From assembly GCF_988242995.1 (NCBI RefSeq), contig NZ_OZ547043.1: DNA of 64,000 nucleotides, one strand, 5' to 3'. The first letter of the stretch is position 1; the number at the start of each line of letters is the position of its first letter. Made by a program: the position numbers and the translations under genes. Under the pieces are notes generated by a model. It saw only the letters and a program-made list of their open reading frames with translations. It ran no database searches and was not told the DNA's origin. This document shows positions 20,956-62,697 of this stretch, one piece after another.

Positions 20956-20982
20956 TTATCGGCAAGGAGGGGGGAAACTTTA
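20956..20982 (-). promoter_or_regulatory. sigma28 (FliA) class 3 promoter of the tar-tap-cheRBYZ operon
   Basis: minus strand TAAAGTTT-N11-GCCGATAA, exact consensus halves, about 25-30 nt upstream of tar start. Confidence 0.8.
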
Positions 20983-32594: not shown

Positions 32595-33584
32595 TTACTT
32601 ACCGCCTAAACCTTTTTTCTCCAGTTCTTCTTTAAAGTTGTCACGCGTGATCAGTACCACGTCGGTAACTTCGGTAAATTTTGGCGGTTCAACGTCTTTT
32701 GCTACCCAGTTGTAAAGCATTTCGCTGGATTTATAGCCATGTACGTCCGGGCTTGGCAGCAGGGAACCGTAGAAGCCGGTTGCCTGTGCTTTAGACAGTT
32801 CGCTCACCGCATCCACACCGTTAATGCCAATGCCGATGATATCGGCCGCTTTAAAGCCCTGACCTTCCGTCGCGCGTACGCCGCCCAGCACGGTGCTGTC
32901 GTTCATACCGACGATCAGCCAATGTTTAACTTCCGGATGTTGAACCAGCATTGAGTTGGCAGCGTCAAATGCCCCCGGGATGTCGTTAGATTTGGTAGGT
33001 ACCTGATAAATTTGTTTTTCCGGGAATCCGGCCGCTTTCAGCGCATCCATAGATCCCGTAGTACGGCGGCGGGCGGTATCCAGTTCGTTGGCGGTAATCG
33101 CCATCACCGCGCTTTCTTTGACATCCCAGCCACGTTTCTGCATCTCTTTATACAGTTCCTGGCCCTGACGTTCGCCAATTTTAGTCGCCGCCATCATCAC
33201 CAGCGGAACGGTATCCATTGGCTTACCTTTGGCGTTAACAAACTGGTCATCCACGGCAATGACTTTCATATCGTAGCCACGCGCTTTCGCGACGATGGCA
33301 GAGCCGAGTTTGGGGTCCGGAGTACAAATAACGAAACCTTTTGCGCCACTGGCAGCCAGGCTGTCGATCGCGTTCAATGTTTTTTCGCCATCCGGCACGG
33401 CAATCTTAATAACCTCAAACCCTAAATCCTTCCCGGCTTTATCGGCAAACTTCCATTCGGTCTGGAACCACGGCTCTTCCGGTTGCTTCACCAGAAAACC
33501 GAGCTTCAGGTTCTCCGCCATAGCGGATTGTGACATAACGGCTGCCAGACCAATGGCTGCCAGGGCTTTAGTAAATTTGTGCAT
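32595..33584 (-). CDS. araF: L-arabinose periplasmic binding protein AraF (329 aa)
   Basis: ORF track 32595..33635; start set at MHKFTKALAAIGLAAVMSQSAMA signal peptide. Confidence 0.94.
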   Translation of the reverse strand: MHKFTKALAAIGLAAVMSQSAMAENLKLGFLVKQPEEPWFQTEWKFADKAGKDLGFEVIKIAVPDGEKTLNAIDSLAASGAKGFVICTPDPKLGSAIVAKARGYDMKVIAVDDQFVNAKGKPMDTVPLVMMAATKIGERQGQELYKEMQKRGWDVKESAVMAITANELDTARRRTTGSMDALKAAGFPEKQIYQVPTKSNDIPGAFDAANSMLVQHPEVKHWLIVGMNDSTVLGGVRATEGQGFKAADIIGIGINGVDAVSELSKAQATGFYGSLLPSPDVHGYKSSEMLYNWVAKDVEPPKFTEVTDVVLITRDNFKEELEKKGLGGK

Positions 33585-34380
33585 GGTTCTCTCCAGCTTT
33601 AGTGTCGTTTTGTGTAGGGCAAAAACGAATGACATTCGTTAAATTAATCGGAAAACAAAGCATTACCTTTTAACTAAAAGATAAGTGACCGTGTTGACAT
33701 AGTTTTAGCGAGAAATTAATTCTCCATAGGAGAGCAATATCACATCGCAGAATTACAGTGAGAACGTGCATAAATTTAGCGGGAAAAGACATAAGGGAAA
33801 GCCAATTTGTCAGACAAATTGTCGAATGCACAGCAGATTAATCCATAAGATTAGCCTGGAAATCCTTGTTGTCTTTGGTACCCATGCGGGATGTCTTCTT
33901 TTTAACCAGTCAATAGGCCGCATTACCTGGCGTTGAGTTTTTGAAATGGTGTAATAACCGCAACTCAAAGATGTGGAAAATGTACGTCATTCATTTCGCC
34001 ATTAATTATCACTGTGCTCATTAATTAACAGAACACGTATAATGAGAGCCATCTCGCAAAAATGAAAAAACGTTTTATAAAATCATCACTTCATCATGAA
34101 TTCAAATTCATTGATTAATATCAACAAGATACAAAAAGCGCTATCATTAAAATTCATTGCAGTTACATTGATTTCATCAATGAAATGTAAAAATATATAA
34201 ACTTGATGATTTAAGCATTTTCTTATACCCGTTCAGACGTTATTCTTATTTCAGATCATCGTCAGAATTGACTCCACGATCACATTTCGGACCGGCAGAA
34301 AGGAATTATTCTGCAAACAGTAATTATGGTGTTTTGATTTATCTTGCACCTCTCCACTTCTGGATATAAGGATATTAGGT

Positions 34381-34884
34381 ATGGCAACCGCTGGAATGCT
34401 TCTCAAACTCAACTCTCAAATGAACCGCGAGTTTTACGCATCCAATCTCTACCTTCACCTGAGTAACTGGTGTTCTGAACAGAGTCTGAACGGCACCGCC
34501 ACTTTCCTTCGCGCCCAGGCACAGAGTAATGTGACCCAAATGATGCGCATGTTTAACTTTATGAAGAGTGTCGGCGCTACCCCCATCGTTAAAGCCATTG
34601 ATGTTCCCGGTGAAAAACTGAACTCTCTGGAAGAACTGTTCCAAAAAACGATGGAAGAATACGAGCAACGTTCTAGTACGTTGGCACAGTTAGCCGATGA
34701 AGCGAAAGAACTGAATGATGATTCAACCGTCAATTTCCTGCGCGATCTGGAAAAAGAACAGCAGCATGATGGTCTGTTGCTGCAAACCATTCTTGATGAA
34801 GTGCGCAGTGCGAAACTTGCGGGTATGTGCCCTGTGCAGACCGACCAACATGTTCTGAATGTCGTGTCACACCAGCTGCATTGA
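34381..34884 (+). CDS. ftnB: ferritin-like protein FtnB (167 aa)
   Basis: ORF track; ferritin fold, paralogue of ftnA about 1.8 kb downstream. Confidence 0.93.
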
Positions 34885-50119: not shown

Positions 50120-51583
50120 TTAACGCAGCAGAGACAGTACGTTCTGCGTGGTCTGGTTAGCCTGCGCCAGAACAGAGGTACCCGCTTGTTGCAGGATCTG
50201 CGCACGAGACATGTTAGACACTTCGGTCGCGTAGTCAGCATCTTCGATACGGCTACGGGCAGAAGACAGGTTGTTTACGGTGTTGCCAAGGTTGGTGATA
50301 GCAGAGTCGAAACGGTTTTGTACTGCACCGAGGTCAGAACGCAGATTGTCAACTTTAGCCAATGCTTTGTCGATAGTTTCGAGCGGGTTGGTGGTAGATT
50401 GCAACGATTTTGCTGCATCTTCGTTTACCAGAATCGGGCTACCACCTTCTGATTTGCTCAGATACATGACTTTATTGTTACCAGAAGCAGTCTCCGTTAT
50501 CGTTTTACCATCTGCACTAACATCGTAAGTTGCACCGTTAACAACTAACGTGCTTCCTGTTTTCTTAGCTGCATTGAGATCAAGATCGGAAAGTGTGGCA
50601 GCCTTGTTATCAACTTTGGTTGTCGTATAAAGGCCAGCGCTATTTTTGTAAACTGTCTCACTCGTAATCAAAGAAGCTTTTTTGTCAGCATCTTTCACAG
50701 TAAATGTCACTGACTTACCATCAATTTCTGCAGAATATACACCATTCCCATTGCCATCCGCTGCAGTTGTTGTTGTGAATTCAACTCCATTAAACGTGAA
50801 TTTATCATTCTGTGCTTTATTCTTAGCCGCTGCTGCGAGTGCTGTAGCATCAATCCCTGTACCAGCTATGTTTGTGTCAGATTTAGTTGTCAGTGAACCA
50901 TCTGCTGCACTAACAAAAATATCATTCCCTGTAGTATCTTTAACAGCTCCGCTATCTACGTTAACAGTATAAGCATCACCGCCAACATCATAGTTATCAG
51001 TACCTGTCGCTTTAAATTTAGAAATCAGGTCACTGCCAGTTGCTTTCTGCGCGCCATCGATATTAAAACCGTCCAGGCCGAGAGTTTTCGCATCAATTTT
51101 TGCCAGATTGATAGTGATGGTTTCACCATCATTAGCACCAACCTGAATTTTCATTTCATTATTTTCAGCAAGGACTTTCACGCCGTTAAACTGAGTTTGC
51201 TCAGATACACGGTCAATTTCTTCCAGACGTTGAGTAATTTCAGCCTGGATAGAAGAAAGATCGCTGTCAGAGTTAGTACCGTTAGTTGCCTGAACAGTCA
51301 GTTCACGTACACGCTGCAGGTTGTTGTTAATTTCATTCAGCGCACCTTCAGTGGTCTGCGCAACAGAAATACCATCATTCGCGTTACGGGAAGCCTGAGT
51401 CAGACCTTTAATATTTGCTGTAAAACGGTTAGCAATCGCCTGACCTGCTGCGTCATCTTTAGCACTGTTAATACGCAGGCCAGAAGAGAGACGTTCAATG
51501 GCGGAGCTCAGAGAAGACTGAGATTTGTTCAGGTTATTCTGGGTCAACAGCGACAGGCTGTTTGTATTAATGACTTGTGCCAT
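50120..51583 (-). CDS. fliC: flagellin FliC (487 aa); conserved D0/D1 termini with variable central domain
   Basis: ORF track; N-terminus MAQVINTNSLSLLTQNNL and C-terminus ...QNVLSLLR typical of enterobacterial flagellin. Confidence 0.96.
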   Translation of the reverse strand: MAQVINTNSLSLLTQNNLNKSQSSLSSAIERLSSGLRINSAKDDAAGQAIANRFTANIKGLTQASRNANDGISVAQTTEGALNEINNNLQRVRELTVQATNGTNSDSDLSSIQAEITQRLEEIDRVSEQTQFNGVKVLAENNEMKIQVGANDGETITINLAKIDAKTLGLDGFNIDGAQKATGSDLISKFKATGTDNYDVGGDAYTVNVDSGAVKDTTGNDIFVSAADGSLTTKSDTNIAGTGIDATALAAAAKNKAQNDKFTFNGVEFTTTTAADGNGNGVYSAEIDGKSVTFTVKDADKKASLITSETVYKNSAGLYTTTKVDNKAATLSDLDLNAAKKTGSTLVVNGATYDVSADGKTITETASGNNKVMYLSKSEGGSPILVNEDAAKSLQSTTNPLETIDKALAKVDNLRSDLGAVQNRFDSAITNLGNTVNNLSSARSRIEDADYATEVSNMSRAQILQQAGTSVLAQANQTTQNVLSLLR

Positions 51584-51679: not shown

Positions 51680-51772
51680 GAAAATTTTAGTTTCTCTCCT
51701 GTTTTTTCTTAACGGCTGAAATATCCGTAATATACAACTCTACTCTGCGCATCATCTTCGTGAATCAACTAT

Positions 51773-51799
51773 TAAACTTTGCGCACAAATTGCCGATAA
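51773..51799 (+). promoter_or_regulatory. sigma28 promoter of fliDST
   Basis: TAAACTTT-N11-GCCGATAA about 40 nt upstream of fliD ATG. Confidence 0.75.
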
Positions 51800-51837
51800 C
51801 CCGCTTATCTACTGTTTGCAATCAAAAGGAATTAGGT

Positions 51838-53250
51838 ATGGCTTCATTTACATCTCTTGGCGTTGGTTCGAATCTGCCGCTGGATACATTGCTAAACAAC
51901 CTGACCATCGCTGAAAAAAAACGCTTAAACCCAATTACTCAGCAACAGAGTGACAATACCGCACGTCTGACAGCCTATGGCACATTAAAAAGTGCATTAG
52001 AAAAATTCCAGACTGCAAATACTGCGTTAAATAAAGCCGATCTGTTCAAAAGCACTACCGTTACCAGTAGCAATGAAGACCTTAAAGTTTCCACCGAAGC
52101 AGGTGCTGCCCCCGGTATCTATACCATCAGCGTAACCCAACTGGCGCAGGCGCAATCTTTACGAACTGATTCCCCGACAATCATTGCATCAACAAAAGAT
52201 GCACTGGGTGATGAGTCATCAGATACACGCACAATAAAAATTACCCAAGACGGTCGTAAAGAGCCGCTGGAAATCAAGCTCAATAAAGATCAGACGTCAT
52301 TGGATGAGATCAGCAAAGCCATTAACGATGCCGATAGTGGAATTTCCGCTAGTATCGTTAAAGTCAAAGATGGTAACTATCAATTGGTATTGACCGCCAG
52401 TGAAGGTCTGGCCAATAAAATGACCATATCTGTTGAGGGTGACAGTAAATTAAATGATCTGCTGGCTTATGACAGCAAGACCAACACCGGGAATATGAAG
52501 GAACTGGTTAACGCGCAAAATGCACAGCTAAACGTTAACGGTATCGATATTGAACGTTCAAGTAACAAAATTACCGATGCTCCTCAGGGAGTGACTCTCG
52601 ATTTGACCAAAAAAGTCACTGACGTCCGGGTCACGGTGACAAAAAGCAACGATAAAGCAACCGAAGCAATTAAAGGCTGGGTGGATTCATATAACTCCCT
52701 CATTGACACCTTTAACACCCTGACAAAATATAAAGAAGTAGACCCAGGTGCTGAAGCACAAGATAAAAATAATGGTGCACTTCTCGGAGACAGCGTTGTA
52801 CGTACAATTCAAAGCGGCATCCGCGCACAATTTGCAAACGGTGCCAGCGACAGTGCCTTCAAAACATTAAACGAGATCGGGATTAAGCAGGACGGCACGA
52901 CGGGTAAGCTGAAAATTGATGATGATAAACTCAAAAAAGTCCTGAATGAAAATACAGCATCCGTACGTGAATTGCTGGTAGGCGATGGTAAAGAAACAGG
53001 AATTACCACCAAAATTGCCACCGAGGTAAAAGGTTACCTTGCCGATGATGGCATTATTGATAGCGCACAGGACAGTATTAACGCCACACTGAAAAAACTG
53101 ACCAAACAGTATCTATCCGTCAGTGCCAGCATTGATGACACCGTGGCGCGTTACACTGCACAGTTTACGCAATTAGATACCATGATGAGCAAACTGAATA
53201 ACACCAGTACCTATCTCAGCCAACAATTTACTGCAATGAGTAATTCCTGA
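51838..53250 (+). CDS. fliD: flagellar filament cap protein FliD (about 470 aa)
   Basis: ORF track 51760..53250; start set at ATG 51838 (MASFTSLGVGSN) with AAAGGA RBS. Confidence 0.93.
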   Translation: MASFTSLGVGSNLPLDTLLNNLTIAEKKRLNPITQQQSDNTARLTAYGTLKSALEKFQTANTALNKADLFKSTTVTSSNEDLKVSTEAGAAPGIYTISVTQLAQAQSLRTDSPTIIASTKDALGDESSDTRTIKITQDGRKEPLEIKLNKDQTSLDEISKAINDADSGISASIVKVKDGNYQLVLTASEGLANKMTISVEGDSKLNDLLAYDSKTNTGNMKELVNAQNAQLNVNGIDIERSSNKITDAPQGVTLDLTKKVTDVRVTVTKSNDKATEAIKGWVDSYNSLIDTFNTLTKYKEVDPGAEAQDKNNGALLGDSVVRTIQSGIRAQFANGASDSAFKTLNEIGIKQDGTTGKLKIDDDKLKKVLNENTASVRELLVGDGKETGITTKIATEVKGYLADDGIIDSAQDSINATLKKLTKQYLSVSASIDDTVARYTAQFTQLDTMMSKLNNTSTYLSQQFTAMSNS

Positions 53251-54117: not shown

Positions 54118-55605
54118 ATGCGTAATCCCACGCTGTTACAATGTTTTCACTGGTATTACCCGGAAGGCGGTAAGCTCTGGCCTGAACTGGCCGAGCGCGC
54201 CGACGGTTTTAATGATATTGGTATCAATATGGTCTGGTTGCCGCCCGCCTATAAAGGCGCATCGGGCGGGTATTCGGTCGGCTACGACTCCTATGATTTA
54301 TTTGATTTAGGCGAGTTTGATCAGAAAGGCAGCATCCCTACTAAATATGGCGATAAAGCACAACTGCTGGCCGCCATTGACGCCCTGAAACGTAATGACA
54401 TTGCGGTGCTGTTGGACGTGGTAGTCAACCACAAAATGGGCGCGGATGAAAAAGAAGCTATTCGCGTGCAGCGTGTAAATGCTGATGACCGTACGCAAAT
54501 TGACGAAGAAATCATTGAGTGTGAAGGCTGGACGCGTTACACCTTCCCCGCCCGTGCCGGGCAATACTCGCAGTTTATCTGGGATTTCAAATGTTTTAGC
54601 GGTATCGACCATATCGAAAACCCTGATGAAGATGGCATATTTAAAATTGTTAACGACTACACCGGCGAAGGCTGGAACGATCAGGTTGATGATGAATTAG
54701 GTAATTTCGATTATCTGATGGGCGAGAATATCGATTTTCGCAATCATGCCGTGACGGAAGAGATTAAATACTGGGCGCGCTGGGTGATGGAACAAACGCA
54801 ATGCGACGGTTTTCGTCTTGATGCGGTCAAACATATTCCGGCGTGGTTTTATAAAGAGTGGATCGAACACGTACAGGAAGTTGCGCCAAAGCCGCTGTTT
54901 ATTGTGGCAGAGTACTGGTCGCATGAAGTCGATAAACTGCAAACGTATATTGATCAGGTGGAAGGCAAAACCATGCTGTTCGATGCGCCGCTGCAGATGA
55001 AATTCCATGAAGCATCGCGCATGGGGCGCGACTACGACATGACGCAGATTTTCACGGGTACATTAGTGGAAGCCGATCCTTTCCACGCCGTGACGCTCGT
55101 TGCCAATCACGACACCCAACCATTGCAAGCCCTCGAAGCACCGGTCGAACCGTGGTTTAAACCGCTGGCGTATGCTCTAATTTTGTTGCGGGAAAATGGC
55201 GTTCCTTCGGTGTTCTATCCGGACCTCTACGGTGCGCATTACGAAGATGTCGGTGGTGACGGGCAAACCTATCCGATAGATATGCCAATAATCGAACAGC
55301 TTGATGAGTTAATTCTCGCCCGTCAGCGTTTCGCCCACGGTGTACAGACGTTATTTTTCGACCATCCGAACTGCATTGCCTTTAGCCGCAGTGGCACTGA
55401 CGAATATCCCGGCTGCGTGGTGGTCATGTCGAACGGGGATGATGGCGAAAAAACCATTCATCTGGGAGAGAATTACGGCAATAAAACCTGGCGTGATTTT
55501 CTGGGGAATCGGCAAGAGAGCGTAGTGACCGACGAAAACGGCGAAGCGACCTTCTTTTGCAACGGCGGCAGCGTCAGCGTGTGGGTTATCGAAGAGGTGA
55601 TTTAA
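54118..55605 (+). CDS. amyA: cytoplasmic alpha-amylase AmyA (495 aa)
   Basis: ORF track; GH13 motifs ([14 protein letters not shown]). Confidence 0.94.
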
Positions 55606-55632
55606 ATTCATCCCCGGCGGCAAGCCGGGGAG
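55606..55632. terminator. terminator hairpin between convergent amyA and yedD
   Basis: tccccggc-ggcaa-gccgggga. Confidence 0.7.
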
Positions 55633-55638
55633 ATTTCA

Positions 55639-56055
55639 TTACGGCAGTGGCGTCGGTAACGGCGCTTTATCCAGCGCGGCGGCACACTCTGCCGTCGGGC
55701 GATCCACACGCTCCATCGTCATACCATCGTACTCAATGGTGTTACCGTCACGCTCAACCTCGTACAGCTCACGTTTTACGGTAACGTTAGTGAGATCATC
55801 AGACATCAATGTCAACTTGCCCGGCACGGCAATCACCCGCTGCCACTGACGGCAATCCAGGGTATCGCCCTCTTTAGTGACAATCAGGCTGCCTATCGCT
55901 TCCGGACTGACCAGCGCACGTTGCGGCCCTTTGGTCTGCCAGTAGCCCGCCAGCCAGTCCGGCGCGGGGGTTTTCACGACATTGTTATAGTTTTCGACTT
56001 CGGCACAGCCCGCCAGCAACATGAGCGCGCTTGCAATTGCGAGTTTTTTCATCAT
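55639..56055 (-). CDS. yedD: lipoprotein YedD (about 137 aa)
   Basis: ORF track; lipobox LLAGC. Confidence 0.85.
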   Translation of the reverse strand: MMKKLAIASALMLLAGCAEVENYNNVVKTPAPDWLAGYWQTKGPQRALVSPEAIGSLIVTKEGDTLDCRQWQRVIAVPGKLTLMSDDLTNVTVKRELYEVERDGNTIEYDGMTMERVDRPTAECAAALDKAPLPTPLP

Positions 56056-56238
56056 TCGTCCTGCATGAGAAGAAAAGAGGATTGTGGCATTAAAGCCCTG
56101 ATGTCGCCAGCCTTTCCAGGTTCAGAGAGAAATTTGATCTAACTATTATTTTTGTGAATTATTACCCCGAAAATAAATTTGCATGATGTATGATTCGCGA
56201 TTCTTGTTTCAAACCTTCTGAGTTCAGAGGCTACATTC

Positions 56239-57444
56239 ATGTCATGGCAGCAATTCAAACACGCCTGGTTGATTAAATTCTGGGCACCCATCCCTGCGGT
56301 CATCGCGGCGGGTATTCTCTCCACTTACTATTTTGGCATTACTGGCACCTTTTGGGCTGTCACGGGTGAATTTACCCGTTGGGGCGGCCAGCTCCTGCAG
56401 CTGTTTGGCGTCCATGCTGAAGAGTGGGGTTATTTTAAAATTATCCATCTGGAAGGATCGCCATTAACCCGCATCGACGGGATGATGATCCTCGGCATGT
56501 TTGGCGGCTGCTTTGCCGCAGCGCTGTGGGCCAACAATGTCAAACTGCGCATGCCACGCAGCCGTATCCGCATTATGCAGGCCATTATTGGCGGTATTAT
56601 CGCTGGTTTTGGCGCGCGTCTGGCAATGGGCTGTAACCTGGCGGCGTTCTTTACCGGTATTCCTCAGTTCTCGCTGCATGCCTGGTTCTTTGCCATCGCC
56701 ACTGCCATTGGTTCATGGTTTGGCGCACGCTTTACCCTGCTGCCCATCTTCCGTATTCCCGTGAAAATGCAGAAAGTTTCTGCCGCCTCACCGCTGACGC
56801 AAAAACCGGATCAGGCGCGGCGTCGTTTTCGTCTCGGGATGCTGGTCTTTTTCGGTATGCTGGGCTGGGCGCTGCTCACGGCGATGAACCAACCAAAACT
56901 GGGGCTGGCAATGCTGTTTGGCGTCGGCTTTGGTTTACTGATTGAACGTGCGCAAATCTGCTTTACTTCGGCGTTCCGCGATATGTGGATCACCGGACGT
57001 ACCCATATGGCGAAAGCAATCATTATCGGTATGGCGGTGAGTGCCATCGGGATCTTCAGTTACGTACAGTTAGGCGTTGAACCCAAAATCATGTGGGCGG
57101 GACCAAACGCGGTAATTGGTGGTTTACTGTTTGGTTTTGGCATCGTGCTGGCAGGCGGCTGCGAAACCGGCTGGATGTACCGCGCGGTAGAAGGCCAGGT
57201 GCACTACTGGTGGGTCGGTCTGGGCAATGTGATCGGCTCGACGATTCTGGCGTATTACTGGGATGATTTCGCTCCGGCGCTGGCCACCGACTGGGACAAA
57301 ATCAACCTGCTGAAAACCTTTGGCCCGATGGGTGGCCTGCTGGTGACATATTTGCTGTTGTTTACTGCGCTGATGTTGATTATCGGCTGGGAAAAACGCT
57401 TCTTCCGCCGTGCGGCACCGCAGACTGCTAAGGAGATCGCATGA
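56239..57444 (+). CDS. yedE: YedE/YeeE-family inner membrane transporter (selenium/thiosulfate-related), 401 aa
   Basis: ORF track; polytopic membrane protein; translationally coupled to yedF. Confidence 0.9.
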   Translation: MSWQQFKHAWLIKFWAPIPAVIAAGILSTYYFGITGTFWAVTGEFTRWGGQLLQLFGVHAEEWGYFKIIHLEGSPLTRIDGMMILGMFGGCFAAALWANNVKLRMPRSRIRIMQAIIGGIIAGFGARLAMGCNLAAFFTGIPQFSLHAWFFAIATAIGSWFGARFTLLPIFRIPVKMQKVSAASPLTQKPDQARRRFRLGMLVFFGMLGWALLTAMNQPKLGLAMLFGVGFGLLIERAQICFTSAFRDMWITGRTHMAKAIIIGMAVSAIGIFSYVQLGVEPKIMWAGPNAVIGGLLFGFGIVLAGGCETGWMYRAVEGQVHYWWVGLGNVIGSTILAYYWDDFAPALATDWDKINLLKTFGPMGGLLVTYLLLFTALMLIIGWEKRFFRRAAPQTAKEIA

Positions 57445-57674
57445 AAAATATCGTTCCTGATTACCGCCTTGATATGGTGGGTGAACCCTGCCCTTATCCG
57501 GCAGTCGCAACTCTTGAGGCGATGCCGCAGTTAAAAAAAGGGGAAATCCTGGAAGTGGTGAGCGACTGTCCACAGTCGATCAATAATATTCCACTGGATG
57601 CGCGTAATCACGGCTATACGGTGCTGGATATTCAGCAAGACGGGCCGACCATTCGTTATTTAATTCAGAAGTAA
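57441..57674 (+). CDS. yedF: TusA-like sulfurtransferase-fold protein YedF (77 aa)
   Basis: ORF track; conserved CPxP motif (EPCPYP). Confidence 0.9.
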   Translation: MKNIVPDYRLDMVGEPCPYPAVATLEAMPQLKKGEILEVVSDCPQSINNIPLDARNHGYTVLDIQQDGPTIRYLIQK

Positions 57675-57780
57675 TCCCTCATTCCCGCTGTGGCCCACAG
57701 CGGGAACATCGTTGCCTCTGACACATAGATTTTACCCGCCCCCTCTCCTATTCTTTTCAGTATGATCTCAGGAGGTTTCT

Positions 57781-58449
57781 ATGTGTGGACGCTTTGCCCA
57801 ATCCCAAACGCGTGAAGATTACCTTGCGCTTCTCGCGGAAGATATTGAACGCGATATTCCCTACGATCCCGAACCCATTGGCAGATACAACGTCGCGCCG
57901 GGAACCAAAGTTCTTCTGCTCAGTGAACGTGATGAACACCTTCATCTGGATCCGGTTTTCTGGGGATATGCTCCCGGATGGTGGGATAAACCGCCGCTGA
58001 TTAACGCCCGCGTAGAAACTGCGGCCACCAGTCGTATGTTTAAACCGCTCTGGCAACATGGTCGGGCAATCTGTTTTGCCGATGGCTGGTTTGAGTGGAA
58101 AAAAGAAGGCGACAAAAAACAGCCTTATTTTATCTATCGCGCTGATGGACAACCTGTTTTTATGGCCGCGATAGGTAGCACACCGTTTGAGCGCGGTGAC
58201 GAAGCCGAAGGATTTTTAATTGTCACTGCAGCAGCAGACCAGGGTCTGGTAGATATTCATGACCGCCGCCCGCTGGTTCTGTCGCCAGAAGCTGCACAGG
58301 AATGGATGCGGCAAGAGATTGGCGGTAAAGAAGCATCAGAAATTGCTACCAACGGCTGTGTGCCAGCAAACCAGTTCACCTGGCACCCGGTATCGCGCGC
58401 GGTGGGTAATATCAAAAACCAGGGAGCGGAGTTAATTCAACCGGTTTGA
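57781..58449 (+). CDS. yedK: SOS-response-associated peptidase (SRAP) YedK, abasic-site DNA-protein crosslinking enzyme (222 aa)
   Basis: ORF track; N-terminal MCGRF with catalytic Cys2. Confidence 0.92.
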   Translation: MCGRFAQSQTREDYLALLAEDIERDIPYDPEPIGRYNVAPGTKVLLLSERDEHLHLDPVFWGYAPGWWDKPPLINARVETAATSRMFKPLWQHGRAICFADGWFEWKKEGDKKQPYFIYRADGQPVFMAAIGSTPFERGDEAEGFLIVTAAADQGLVDIHDRRPLVLSPEAAQEWMRQEIGGKEASEIATNGCVPANQFTWHPVSRAVGNIKNQGAELIQPV

Positions 58450-58843
58450 TAAGCCAGGAGACTATTGATCAATAATACTGCGTCATAAGAAATCTCTATT
58501 AGACAATAGTAGACGCTCCTTCCACATGCGCCACAAGAAACCTCTATTCCAGTGACACAATTACGCCTGATTATTTCCCTAGCCCGGAATATGAATAAAA
58601 ACATCAACAAAGATTAAATTATTCAAACGTTACTGTTGCGTCTGCGGTCGTAGCAACATCCGACGTGGTGATGAGTGTTAAAAGAGACACTCTGATGTTC
58701 AGAGGGGTTATCGCGTTTACGGATCGTGGATGGCAGAAAACTTTCAGGATCAGGTATCCATTTTAAACCAGAAATTGAGTGAGTTTGCCCCATCCATGCC
58801 CCAAGCGGTGAGATTGGAAGTAATTAACAACAGGTTACAAAAC

Positions 58844-59158
58844 CTACACCTGCATGGACATCACTTCCTGATACGCCGCCACCAGCTTATTACGCACCTG
58901 AATCCCCATTTGCATAGAAACTGAGGCTTTTTGCATATCGGTCATCACATCGTTTAACGCCACGCCGGGTTCACCGAGGGTGAATTTTTCTGCCTGCGTG
59001 CGGGCAGCTGTTTGTGTATCGCTAATGCGATCGAGCGCGGCGTGCAGCTGCCCGGCAAAACTAATGGTCGGTTGCGGCAGTGAATCCTGCGCACGCGCAC
59101 TCATCGCCGTAGCCTGTAACTGGCTGATAACCCCTTCAATCCCCTGTATCGCTGACAT
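58844..59158 (-). CDS. fliE: flagellar hook-basal body protein FliE (104 aa)
   Basis: ORF track 58844..59188; start set at [10 protein letters not shown]. Confidence 0.93.
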
Positions 59159-59372
59159 TTTCGTCTCCTGGATAATTTCTGGTAACAAAGCCTACCAGTA
59201 AGTCAATAAGATAAAGGCGCTAAATAACAACAAAAAAACGGGTTTATTGGCGGATAGAAAAAAACGAAAGCACAAATAATGGCAGCGTCAATTTTTCGAG
59301 TTTGCTGACCCGGGAGTGAGTCTTGTTCCACTTTGCCAATAACGCCGTCCATAATCAGCCACGAGGTGCGCG

Positions 59373-62697
<3,325 letters not shown>

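What the first reader, a model, noticed from the sequence alone, without database searches (positions are those of the whole stretch)
56239..58449. yedE-yedF coupled pair and SRAP gene yedK with N-terminal catalytic Cys
yedE (YedE/YeeE transporter family) and yedF (TusA-like, CPxP motif EPCPYP) overlap by 4 bp (ATGA), consistent with a co-translated sulfur/selenium handling pair. Downstream, yedK begins MCGRF..., placing the SRAP catalytic cysteine at position 2 as required for thiazolidine crosslinking to abasic sites in single-stranded DNA. Both are intact here and sit inside the flagellar neighbourhood, but I see no sequence evidence of a functional link to motility.
Basis: partly seen in the sequence, partly recalled or inferred. 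Interest (0 to 1): 0.2.

Follow-up and report, generated by a model that had tools for sequence, protein, structure and literature searches.

The report
Known E. coli genes yedE, yedF, yedK
These are three ordinary, intact and already annotated Escherichia coli genes: a membrane channel and its small partner protein, thought to handle selenium or sulfur, and a well-studied DNA-damage shielding enzyme. They lie between flagellar operons but carry no flagellar control signals.

Summary
yedE (56239-57444, 401 aa) and yedF (57441-57674, 77 aa) overlap by ATGA. YedF carries EPCPYP (Cys17). yedK (57781-58449, 222 aa) starts MCGRF and keeps Cys2, Asn75, Glu105 and His160.

NCBIfam names them YedE/FdhT, YedF and the YedK subfamily. 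The DNA is 100% identical to many E. coli chromosomes, and 5379 of 5426 complete genomes match it. YedF is identical to PDB 1JE3. YedK is 96% identical to the K-12 protein, whose abasic-site cross-link structures are solved.

I found no sigma-28, FNR or LexA site at these genes, so the flagellar neighbourhood is positional only. All of this is already known, and interest is low.

Three small additions:
- The two halves of YedE are in swapped order relative to the thiosulfate channel TsuA/YeeE, but all three relay cysteines are kept.
- E. coli YedF is the one-domain form, not the two-domain "YedF" of the selenium literature.
- A strong hairpin without a U-tract separates yedF from yedK.

The cargo of YedE-YedF remains unproven.

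The parts
56121..56149 (+). sigma-70-like promoter TTCAGA-17-TATTAT in the yedD/yedE divergent spacer; candidate yedEF promoter
   Evidence: Consensus scan. The same hexamer pair is listed for yedEF in the genomic-SELEX catalogue of constitutive RpoD promoters (PMC3946193). The scan alone is not above chance: 2 sites found against 3.8 expected.
56239..57444 (+). yedE: 401-aa inner-membrane YedE/FdhT protein (putative selenium transporter). Cys132, Cys308 and Cys241 correspond to the three relay cysteines of YeeE/TsuA.
   Evidence: ORF. PF04143 5e-51. NF033796 at 620 bits against a cut-off of 350, matched end to end. 400/401 identical to K-12 YedE. Alignments to S. thermophila YeeE 6LEO and E. 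coli TsuA. Cysteine positions.
57430..57444 (+). Translational-coupling junction: Shine-Dalgarno AAGGAG (57430-57435) inside yedE, then ATGA (57441-57444), where the yedF start overlaps the yedE stop
   Evidence: Read directly from the sequence. The same 4-bp overlap is annotated in K-12 and in strain 07-4299.
57441..57674 (+). yedF: 77-aa single-domain TusA-like protein, with CPxP Cys17 (EPCPYP encoded at 57483-57500) and a second Cys43
   Evidence: PF01206 9e-21. NF008242 equivalog at 156.8 bits against 79. 100% identical to PDB 1JE3. Cys17 and Cys43 align with Cys13 and Cys39 of TsuB/YeeD, both of which are needed for YeeD function (PMC11073785).
57682..57706 (+). 11-bp stem, 3-nt loop hairpin (UUCCCGCUGUG-GCC-CACAGCGGGAA) starting 8 nt after the yedF stop, with no U-tract. 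Probable 3' boundary or stabiliser of the yedEF transcript.
   Evidence: RNA fold of 57660-57785: -39.9 kcal/mol, z = -5.4, 0 of 200 shuffles as stable. Conserved in K-12 with one change next to the loop. Not reported by the terminator scan because the T-run is missing. No Rfam match.
57770..57775 (+). Shine-Dalgarno AGGAGG of yedK, 5 nt before the ATG
   Evidence: Read directly from the sequence.
57781..58449 (+). yedK: 222-aa SRAP protein with Cys2, Asn75, Glu105 and His160 all present
   Evidence: PF02586 5e-52 over 1-210. NF007413 at 492 bits against 349. 214/222 identical to K-12 YedK, which corresponds to PDB 6KCQ, 6NUA, 6NUH and 2ICU. Residue check.

Best explanation
The region holds two independent, already known E. 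coli units that are neighbours by position only.

(1) yedE-yedF is a translationally coupled pair, probably transcribed from a sigma-70 promoter in the yedD/yedE spacer and ending at the hairpin after yedF. YedE is an inner-membrane channel of the YeeE/YedE (Sulf_transp) superfamily. By analogy with TsuA(YeeE)-TsuB(YeeD), a small chalcogen anion is passed inward along three stacked cysteines: Cys132 on the periplasmic side, Cys308 in the centre and Cys241 on the cytoplasmic side. It is then captured by Cys17 of the CPxP motif of the cytoplasmic TusA-like YedF, the 'fourth cysteine'. The cargo is most likely a selenium species that feeds selenophosphate synthesis for selenoproteins such as the formate dehydrogenases.

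(2) yedK has its own strong ribosome-binding site. After removal of Met1, the free amino group and thiol of Cys2 attack the ring-opened aldehyde of an abasic site in single-stranded DNA. Glu105 and His160 catalyse ring opening and Schiff-base formation, and a thiazolidine DNA-protein cross-link forms that shields the lesion.

Shown here: gene identity, intactness, motifs, catalytic residues, family membership, and the absence of flagellar, FNR or LexA signals. Shown by others for near-identical proteins: YedK chemistry and structures, and the YedF fold. Inferred: the cysteine relay in YedE, hand-off to YedF, selenium as cargo, translational coupling, and the transcript boundaries.
For: - **Identity.** The DNA is 100% identical to many E. 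coli chromosomes that RefSeq annotates as yedE/yedF/yedK, and 5379 of 5426 genomes match.
- **Families.** Pfam and NCBIfam hits are far above their cut-offs.
- **YedK.** Cys2, Asn75, Glu105 and His160 are present. The protein is 96% identical to K-12 YedK, which has solved cross-link structures and a published mechanism (PMC9436759; PMC6821365).
- **YedF.** It is identical to 1JE3. Cys17 and Cys43 align with the two functionally required cysteines of TsuB (PMC11073785).
- **YedE.** All three YeeE relay cysteines are conserved in alignments to 6LEO and TsuA (PMC7449682).
- **Selenium link.** The NF033796 'selenium metabolism membrane protein YedE/FdhT' model matches. YedE co-occurs with SelD (PMC5322559). 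yedEF groups with ynjE and ynj/yjiLM in an anaerobically active E. coli iModulon (PMC7888660).
- **Selection.** Synonymous versus non-synonymous codon differences from K-12 are 19:1, 2:0 and 22:8.
- **Separate units.** The literature lists yedEF as an operon without yedK. A stable hairpin lies between yedF and yedK, and yedK has its own AGGAGG.
Against: - No direct transport or selenium phenotype for E. coli YedE/YedF turned up in the papers I could search.
- Deleting the archaeal yedE in Methanococcus maripaludis gave no clear selenium-uptake defect (PMC11097638).
- In Salmonella, yedF was reported to be repressed 27-fold without oxygen, which conflicts with the anaerobic iModulon activity in E. 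coli.
- The hairpin lacks a U-tract, so read-through into yedK is possible.
- The promoter match is no better than chance in the consensus scan.
- YedE's halves are in swapped order relative to TsuA, so the relay geometry is transferred by inference, not by a collinear alignment.
Confidence: 0.9

Rival explanations
1. YedE-YedF carries a sulfur species (thiosulfate, polysulfide or another sulfane sulfur) rather than selenium, acting as a second TsuA-TsuB-like sulfur uptake system.
For: YedE belongs to the same Pfam family as TsuA and keeps all three relay cysteines. YedF keeps both TsuB cysteines. Other family members move thiosulfate or zero-valent sulfur (PMC7449682; PMC10812762). The selenium assignment rests on co-occurrence only.
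Against: YedE fails both TsuA NCBIfam models (120.9 bits against 400; 80.8 against 645), and YedF fails the TsuB model (43.1 against 147.5). An E. coli strain lacking cysPUWA and yeeE does not grow on thiosulfate although yedE is present (PMC7449682). YedE is reported almost only in SelD-containing organisms.
Confidence: 0.2
2. YedF has a regulatory role that links the locus to flagella and virulence. Its position among flagellar operons would then be functional rather than accidental.
For: A Salmonella Typhimurium yedF deletion was aflagellate, with lower flagellar, chemotaxis and SPI gene expression and higher anaerobic respiration genes (PMC5681696). The genes lie between fliDST-amyA and fliE/fliFGH.
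Against: No sigma-28 promoter lies at yedE or yedK, although the same scan finds sites at 51679-51653(-) and 51773-51799(+) and a perfect consensus at 20982(-). yedEF falls in an anaerobic/molybdenum-selenium iModulon, not a flagellar one. YedF is a 77-aa TusA fold with no DNA-binding domain. The Salmonella phenotype is pleiotropic and could be indirect, through sulfur or selenium and anaerobic metabolism, or through an effect on the nearby fliE/fliF promoters.
Confidence: 0.1
3. yedE, yedF and yedK form one operon with a shared function, for example protecting DNA during selenium or sulfur stress.
For: All three are on the same strand. The yedF-yedK gap is only 106 bp. No recognisable promoter was found in the gap, and the hairpin lacks a U-tract.
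Against: The operon is listed as yedEF in two independent E. coli data sets. A very stable hairpin (z = -5.4) follows yedF. The two units differ in divergence from K-12: yedK 4.8% against yedE 1.7% and yedF 0.9%. No known biochemical connection exists between SRAP proteins and chalcogen transport.
Confidence: 0.12

Closest known systems
E. coli K-12 YedK (b1931; PDB 2ICU, 6NUA, 6NUH, 6KBS, 6KCQ, 8D2M), the bacterial SRAP / HMCES orthologue
   Same: Same gene at the same locus. 214/222 residues are identical. Cys2, Asn75, Glu105 and His160 are identical, and the length is the same.
   Different: There are eight substitutions, all between residues 116 and 211 (F116Y, I125V, R173Q, S181G, A191T, S192N, S200T, V211I, written K-12 residue to window residue), and none in the catalytic set.
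E. coli K-12 YedE (b1929) / Campylobacter FdhT family (NCBIfam NF033796)
   Same: 400/401 identical to K-12 YedE. The match to the family model is full-length.
   Different: One substitution only (A376T, K-12 to window).
TsuA(YeeE)-TsuB(YeeD) thiosulfate uptake pair (PDB 6LEO, 8J4C, 8K1R)
   Same: Same Pfam families and the same gene order, membrane protein then TusA-like protein. Three relay cysteines in the membrane protein and two cysteines in the small partner are conserved.
   Different: - It is a paralogue, not an orthologue: it fails the TsuA and TsuB cut-offs, with 41% and 26% identity over the two halves.
- YedE's halves are in swapped order relative to TsuA and to the Pfam model.
- YedE is 401 aa with about 10 hydrophobic segments; TsuA is 352 aa and its family is described with 9 (PMC5322559; PMC11582611).
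- yedE and yedF overlap by 4 bp, whereas tsuA and tsuB are 13 bp apart.
E. coli YedF (PDB 1JE3) and TusA (PDB 1DCJ, 3LVJ)
   Same: YedF is 100% identical to 1JE3. It has the TusA fold and the CPxP motif.
   Different: It is not TusA itself (32.2 bits against 78). It is also not the two-domain SirA-like plus DsrE-like 'YedF' (TIGR03527) discussed in selenium comparative genomics (22.7 bits against 110; PMC5322559).

Membership tests
SRAP (PF02586) / YedK subfamily | SRAP domain match above the curated cut-off | tested here: met
   PF02586 at 177 bits against 27.1, covering 1-210 of 222. NF007413 at 492 bits against 349.
SRAP (PF02586) / YedK subfamily | Cysteine directly after the initiator Met, so that it becomes the N-terminal residue | tested here: met
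   The protein starts MCGRF, with TGT at 57784-57786.
SRAP (PF02586) / YedK subfamily | Active-site Asn75, Glu105 and His160 | tested here: met
   All three are present at those positions. Their roles are defined in PMC9436759.
SRAP (PF02586) / YedK subfamily | Forms a thiazolidine cross-link with abasic sites in single-stranded DNA | not testable with these tools
   Shown for the 96%-identical K-12 protein (PDB 6NUA and 6KCQ).
SOS (LexA) regulon | LexA box CTGT-N8-ACAG upstream of the gene | tested here: not met
   No match with up to 1 mismatch anywhere in 55000-59000. The 'SOS' in the family name is not supported for this locus.
YedE/FdhT selenium-metabolism membrane protein (NF033796) | Full-length match above the curated cut-off | tested here: met
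   620 bits against 350; residues 10-390 match profile positions 2-385 of 387.
YedE/FdhT selenium-metabolism membrane protein (NF033796) | Conserved cysteines of the YeeE-type relay | tested here: met
   Cys241, Cys308 and Cys132 align with S. thermophila YeeE Cys22, Cys91 and Cys293, and with E. coli TsuA Cys25, Cys94 and Cys302.
YedE/FdhT selenium-metabolism membrane protein (NF033796) | Transports or handles a selenium compound | not testable with these tools
   Support is limited to co-occurrence with SelD and an anaerobic iModulon. The archaeal knockout was inconclusive.
TsuA/YeeE thiosulfate transporter | Match above the curated cut-off of the TsuA models | tested here: not met
   NF052577 at 120.9 bits against 400; NF041049 at 80.8 against 645. 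Both are partial matches in swapped order.
YedF, one-domain form (NF008242) | Equivalog match above cut-off, plus a CPxP cysteine | tested here: met
   156.8 bits against 79. CPYP with Cys17. Identical to 1JE3.
YedF, two-domain form (TIGR03527, SirA-like + DsrE-like with CGXC) | Both domains present, score above cut-off | tested here: not met
   22.7 bits against 110, and only profile positions 1-59 of 194 match. The 77-aa protein has no DsrE-like domain.
TusA proper / TsuB proper | Equivalog cut-offs | tested here: not met
   TusA at 32.2 bits against 78; TsuB at 43.1 against 147.5.
Flagellar regulon (class 3, FliA-dependent) | Sigma-28 promoter TAAAGTTT-N11-GCCGATAA upstream | tested here: not met
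   No hit between 54255 and 59243. The same scan finds a perfect site at 20982(-) and sites at 51679-51653(-) and 51773-51799(+).

The most novel reading that the evidence does not exclude
The selenium-linked YedE/FdhT clade is a permuted version of the TsuA/YeeE channel: the C-terminal-type half comes first and the N-terminal-type half second. From hydropathy and the positive-inside rule, a reversed linker helix and an extra C-terminal helix appear to restore the membrane orientation of both halves. The Cys132 to Cys308 to Cys241 relay would then still run inward to YedF Cys17. If so, YedE-YedF would be the long-sought dedicated selenium importer, built by re-fusing two half-transporters in the opposite order. 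The swapped order is shown here at sequence level. The preserved orientation and the selenium cargo are inferred. I found no paper describing the swap, but my search covers open-access text only.
Probability: 0.35. Interest if true: 0.4.

Novelty: already known. Interest (0 to 1): 0.07.

Why it matters
For a genome scan, this region needs no follow-up: it holds textbook-annotated, intact E. coli genes with solved structures for two of the three proteins. The only open biology is general to the family rather than special to this window. No dedicated selenium transporter has been proven in any organism (PMC11097638). YedE-YedF is the leading candidate, and the TsuA-TsuB structures now give a concrete, testable cysteine-relay model for it.

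Tried and rejected
- **Rfam.** A permissive scan of 55000-60000 gave no RNA family match.
- **Terminator scan.** It did not report the yedF-yedK hairpin, because the T-run is absent, and its other hits are at chance level.
- **FNR site search.** TTGAT-N4-ATCAA with up to 2 mismatches found nothing in the yedD/yedE spacer; the only nearby hit (57625) is inside yedF and at chance frequency.
- **LexA box search.** Nothing near yedK.
- **Sigma-28 scan.** Nothing near these genes.
- **PMC10812762 ('YedE1E2' zero-valent sulfur transporter).** Rejected as evidence for this protein. Its 'EcYedE3' is described as 39 kDa, with nine helices, and as mediating thiosulfate uptake, so I take it to be TsuA/YeeE and not the 401-aa YedE here.
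- **Shaw et al. 2012 on fdhTU (PMC3416564).** Not held in the library, so I cite the Campylobacter evidence only second-hand.
- **Literature search for a described YedE permutation.** Only irrelevant hits.
- **Searches not run.** The verdict does not depend on them, and sequential structure aligners would not resolve a permutation in a pseudo-222-symmetric fold better than the profile coordinates already do.
Full report
**Observation**

- yedE: 56239..57444, 401 aa.
- yedF: 57441..57674, 77 aa.
- yedK: 57781..58449, 222 aa.

All are on the + strand, and each has a single terminal stop. The yedF ATG (57441-57443) overlaps the yedE TGA (57442-57444) in the tetranucleotide ATGA. A Shine-Dalgarno AAGGAG sits at 57430-57435, inside yedE. 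YedF residues 15-20 read EPCPYP. YedK begins MCGRF and is preceded by AGGAGG at 57770-57775. A 4-bp overlap is common: at least four other adjacent ORF pairs in this window have one. It is compatible with translational coupling but is not remarkable.

**Identity**

Pfam returns:
- Sulf_transp PF04143 (5e-51) for YedE.
- TusA PF01206 (9e-21) for YedF.
- SRAP PF02586 (5e-52, residues 1-210) for YedK.
- YedD PF13987 for the divergent upstream gene.

NCBIfam is more specific:
- NF033796 'selenium metabolism membrane protein YedE/FdhT': 620 bits against a cut-off of 350, matched end to end.
- NF008242 YedF equivalog: 156.8 bits against 79.
- NF007413, the YedK subfamily: 492 bits against 349.

Window 55600-59400 is 100% identical to many E. 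coli chromosomes, and 5379 of 5426 complete genomes hold a match. RefSeq annotates the identical DNA as yedD, yedE, yedF, yedK, an integrase fragment, fliE and fliF.

Comparison with K-12:
- YedE is 400/401 identical.
- YedF is identical to PDB 1JE3.
- YedK is 214/222 identical.
- Synonymous versus non-synonymous codon differences are 19:1 (yedE), 2:0 (yedF) and 22:8 (yedK), so all three genes are under purifying selection.

**YedK**

Cys2, Asn75, Glu105 and His160 are all present. For K-12 YedK, crystal structures of the cross-linked state exist (6NUA, 6KCQ and others). The published mechanism runs as follows (PMC9436759; PMC6821365):
- Glu105 and His160 catalyse ring opening of the abasic site.
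- The Cys2 alpha-amino group forms a Schiff base.
- The Cys2 thiol closes the thiazolidine ring.

The eight substitutions in this allele lie between residues 116 and 211 and avoid the catalytic set. The family name says 'SOS', but there is no LexA box near yedK.

**YedE-YedF**

The closest characterised system is TsuA(YeeE)-TsuB(YeeD). In YeeE, three conserved cysteines stacked across the membrane relay thiosulfate inward (PMC7449682). YeeD is essential, docks on the cytoplasmic face and supplies a 'fourth cysteine' from its CPxP motif (PMC11073785).

The cysteines of both partners are conserved here:
- YedE Cys241, Cys308 and Cys132 align with S. thermophila YeeE Cys22, Cys91 and Cys293.
- YedF Cys17 and Cys43 align with TsuB Cys13 and Cys39, the two cysteines needed for YeeD function.

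The pair therefore most likely works like TsuA-TsuB. It is not that system, however. YedE fails both TsuA models and YedF fails the TsuB and TusA models. An E. coli strain lacking cysPUWA and yeeE cannot use thiosulfate although it still has yedE.

The selenium assignment rests on three lines:
- Co-occurrence with SelD and neighbourhood with selenium genes (PMC5322559).
- The Campylobacter fdhTU accessory genes for selenium-dependent formate dehydrogenase, which I cite second-hand.
- An E. coli iModulon that groups yedEF with ynjE, ynjXYZABCD and yjiLM and is more active anaerobically (PMC7888660).

It remains unproven. No specific selenium transporter is established in any organism, and an archaeal yedE deletion gave no clear phenotype (PMC11097638).

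**Swapped halves in YedE**

The two halves of YedE are in swapped order relative to TsuA. The evidence:
- Split in two and scanned separately, YedE 1-200 matches Pfam PF04143 profile positions 165-310, and YedE 201-401 matches positions 1-162. The TsuA control halves match 1-156 and 162-310 in the normal order.
- The same swap appears against PDB 6LEO: YedE 224-333 aligns with YeeE 5-116, and YedE 71-164 with YeeE 233-325.
- It appears against E. coli TsuA by BLASTP: 78.6 and 34.7 bits for the swapped pairs, about 26 bits each for the collinear ones.
- A semi-global alignment scores 264-270 for the permuted order against 191 for the native order; shuffled controls average 20.

The NF033796 model is collinear with E. 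coli YedE over its full length, so the arrangement belongs to the whole YedE/FdhT family.

From hydropathy peaks and the positive-inside rule I infer the following:
- The strongly basic loop 166-198 and the basic C-terminus are cytoplasmic.
- The helix at about 199-217 crosses from inside to outside.
- An extra helix at about 357-382 brings the chain back inside.

Both halves would then keep the orientation they have in TsuA, and the cysteine relay would still point inward. This is inference and was not tested. Half-size genes exist in this family (archaeal split YedE; YedE1/YedE2 and PmpA/PmpB). That makes fusion in either order plausible. I found no paper describing the swap.

**Link to motility**

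The genes lie between fliDST-amyA and fliE/fliFGH. A sigma-28 scan recovers a perfect consensus at 20982(-) and sites at 51679-51653(-) and 51773-51799(+), but it finds nothing between 54255 and 59243.

The only sigma-70-like site upstream of yedE, TTCAGA-17-TATTAT at 56121-56149, is the one listed for yedEF in a genomic-SELEX promoter catalogue (PMC3946193). No FNR-like site is present in that spacer.

One published phenotype points the other way: a Salmonella yedF deletion was aflagellate and broadly altered in virulence and anaerobic gene expression (PMC5681696). That effect is pleiotropic and may be indirect, and I rate it as a weak rival.

**Operon structure**

A very stable hairpin (57682-57706; 11-bp stem; z = -5.4) starts 8 nt after the yedF stop and is conserved in K-12. 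It has no U-tract, so it is not a canonical intrinsic terminator. Two E. coli data sets list the operon as yedEF without yedK. yedK is also more diverged from K-12 (4.8%) than yedE (1.7%) or yedF (0.9%). I conclude that yedEF and yedK are separate units, with some read-through not excluded.

**Verdict**

The genes are already known, and interest is low.

Noticed in passing
window 56239-57444 (YedE protein): The two halves of YedE are in swapped order relative to Pfam PF04143 and to TsuA/YeeE. YedE 1-200 matches profile positions 165-310 and YedE 201-401 matches 1-162, while all three relay cysteines are kept. I found no paper describing this.
   Followed up: partly
window 57682-57706: A very stable 11-bp hairpin lies just after the yedF stop and has no U-tract (z = -5.4). 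It is conserved in K-12 with one base change next to the loop. It is not a canonical terminator and matches no Rfam family.
   Followed up: partly
window 58450-58843 (yedK-fliE spacer): Relative to K-12, this strain lacks yedL and the yedN pseudogene. Only a 64-bp relic (58510-58573) and an annotated integrase fragment (about 58688-58810) remain, and GC is 42%. Only 2665 of 5379 E. coli genomes are collinear over at least 80% of 55600-59400, so this is a common indel site at an old prophage scar (intG / PR-G in K-12).
   Followed up: partly
window 57441-57674: There is a name collision. E. coli YedF is a 77-aa one-domain TusA-like protein and fails the two-domain 'YedF' model TIGR03527 (22.7 bits against 110). 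That two-domain form is the one analysed in selenium comparative genomics.
   Followed up: yes
window 57781-58449: yedK differs from K-12 by 4.8% of bases and 8 amino acids, all in residues 116-211. yedE differs by 1.7% and yedF by 0.9%, with one and zero amino-acid changes. This may reflect a recombination boundary next to the variable spacer.
   Followed up: no
window 34111-34124: A perfect FNR consensus, TTGATTAATATCAA, lies in the intergenic region between ORFs 32595..33635 (-) and 34381..34884 (+). It is the only zero-mismatch site in the window.
   Followed up: no
window 20982-20956 (-), 51679-51653 (-), 51773-51799 (+): A perfect sigma-28 consensus (TAAAGTTT-N11-GCCGATAA) lies at 20982(-). 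A divergent pair of near-consensus sigma-28 sites lies at 51679-51653(-) and 51773-51799(+), between ORFs 50120..51583(-) and 51760..53250(+). I used these as positive controls.
   Followed up: no
window 55639-56055 (-): The yedD ORF begins with two Met codons (MMKKL...). RefSeq annotates the second as the start (137 aa), whereas the mechanical ORF list gives 138 aa.
   Followed up: no
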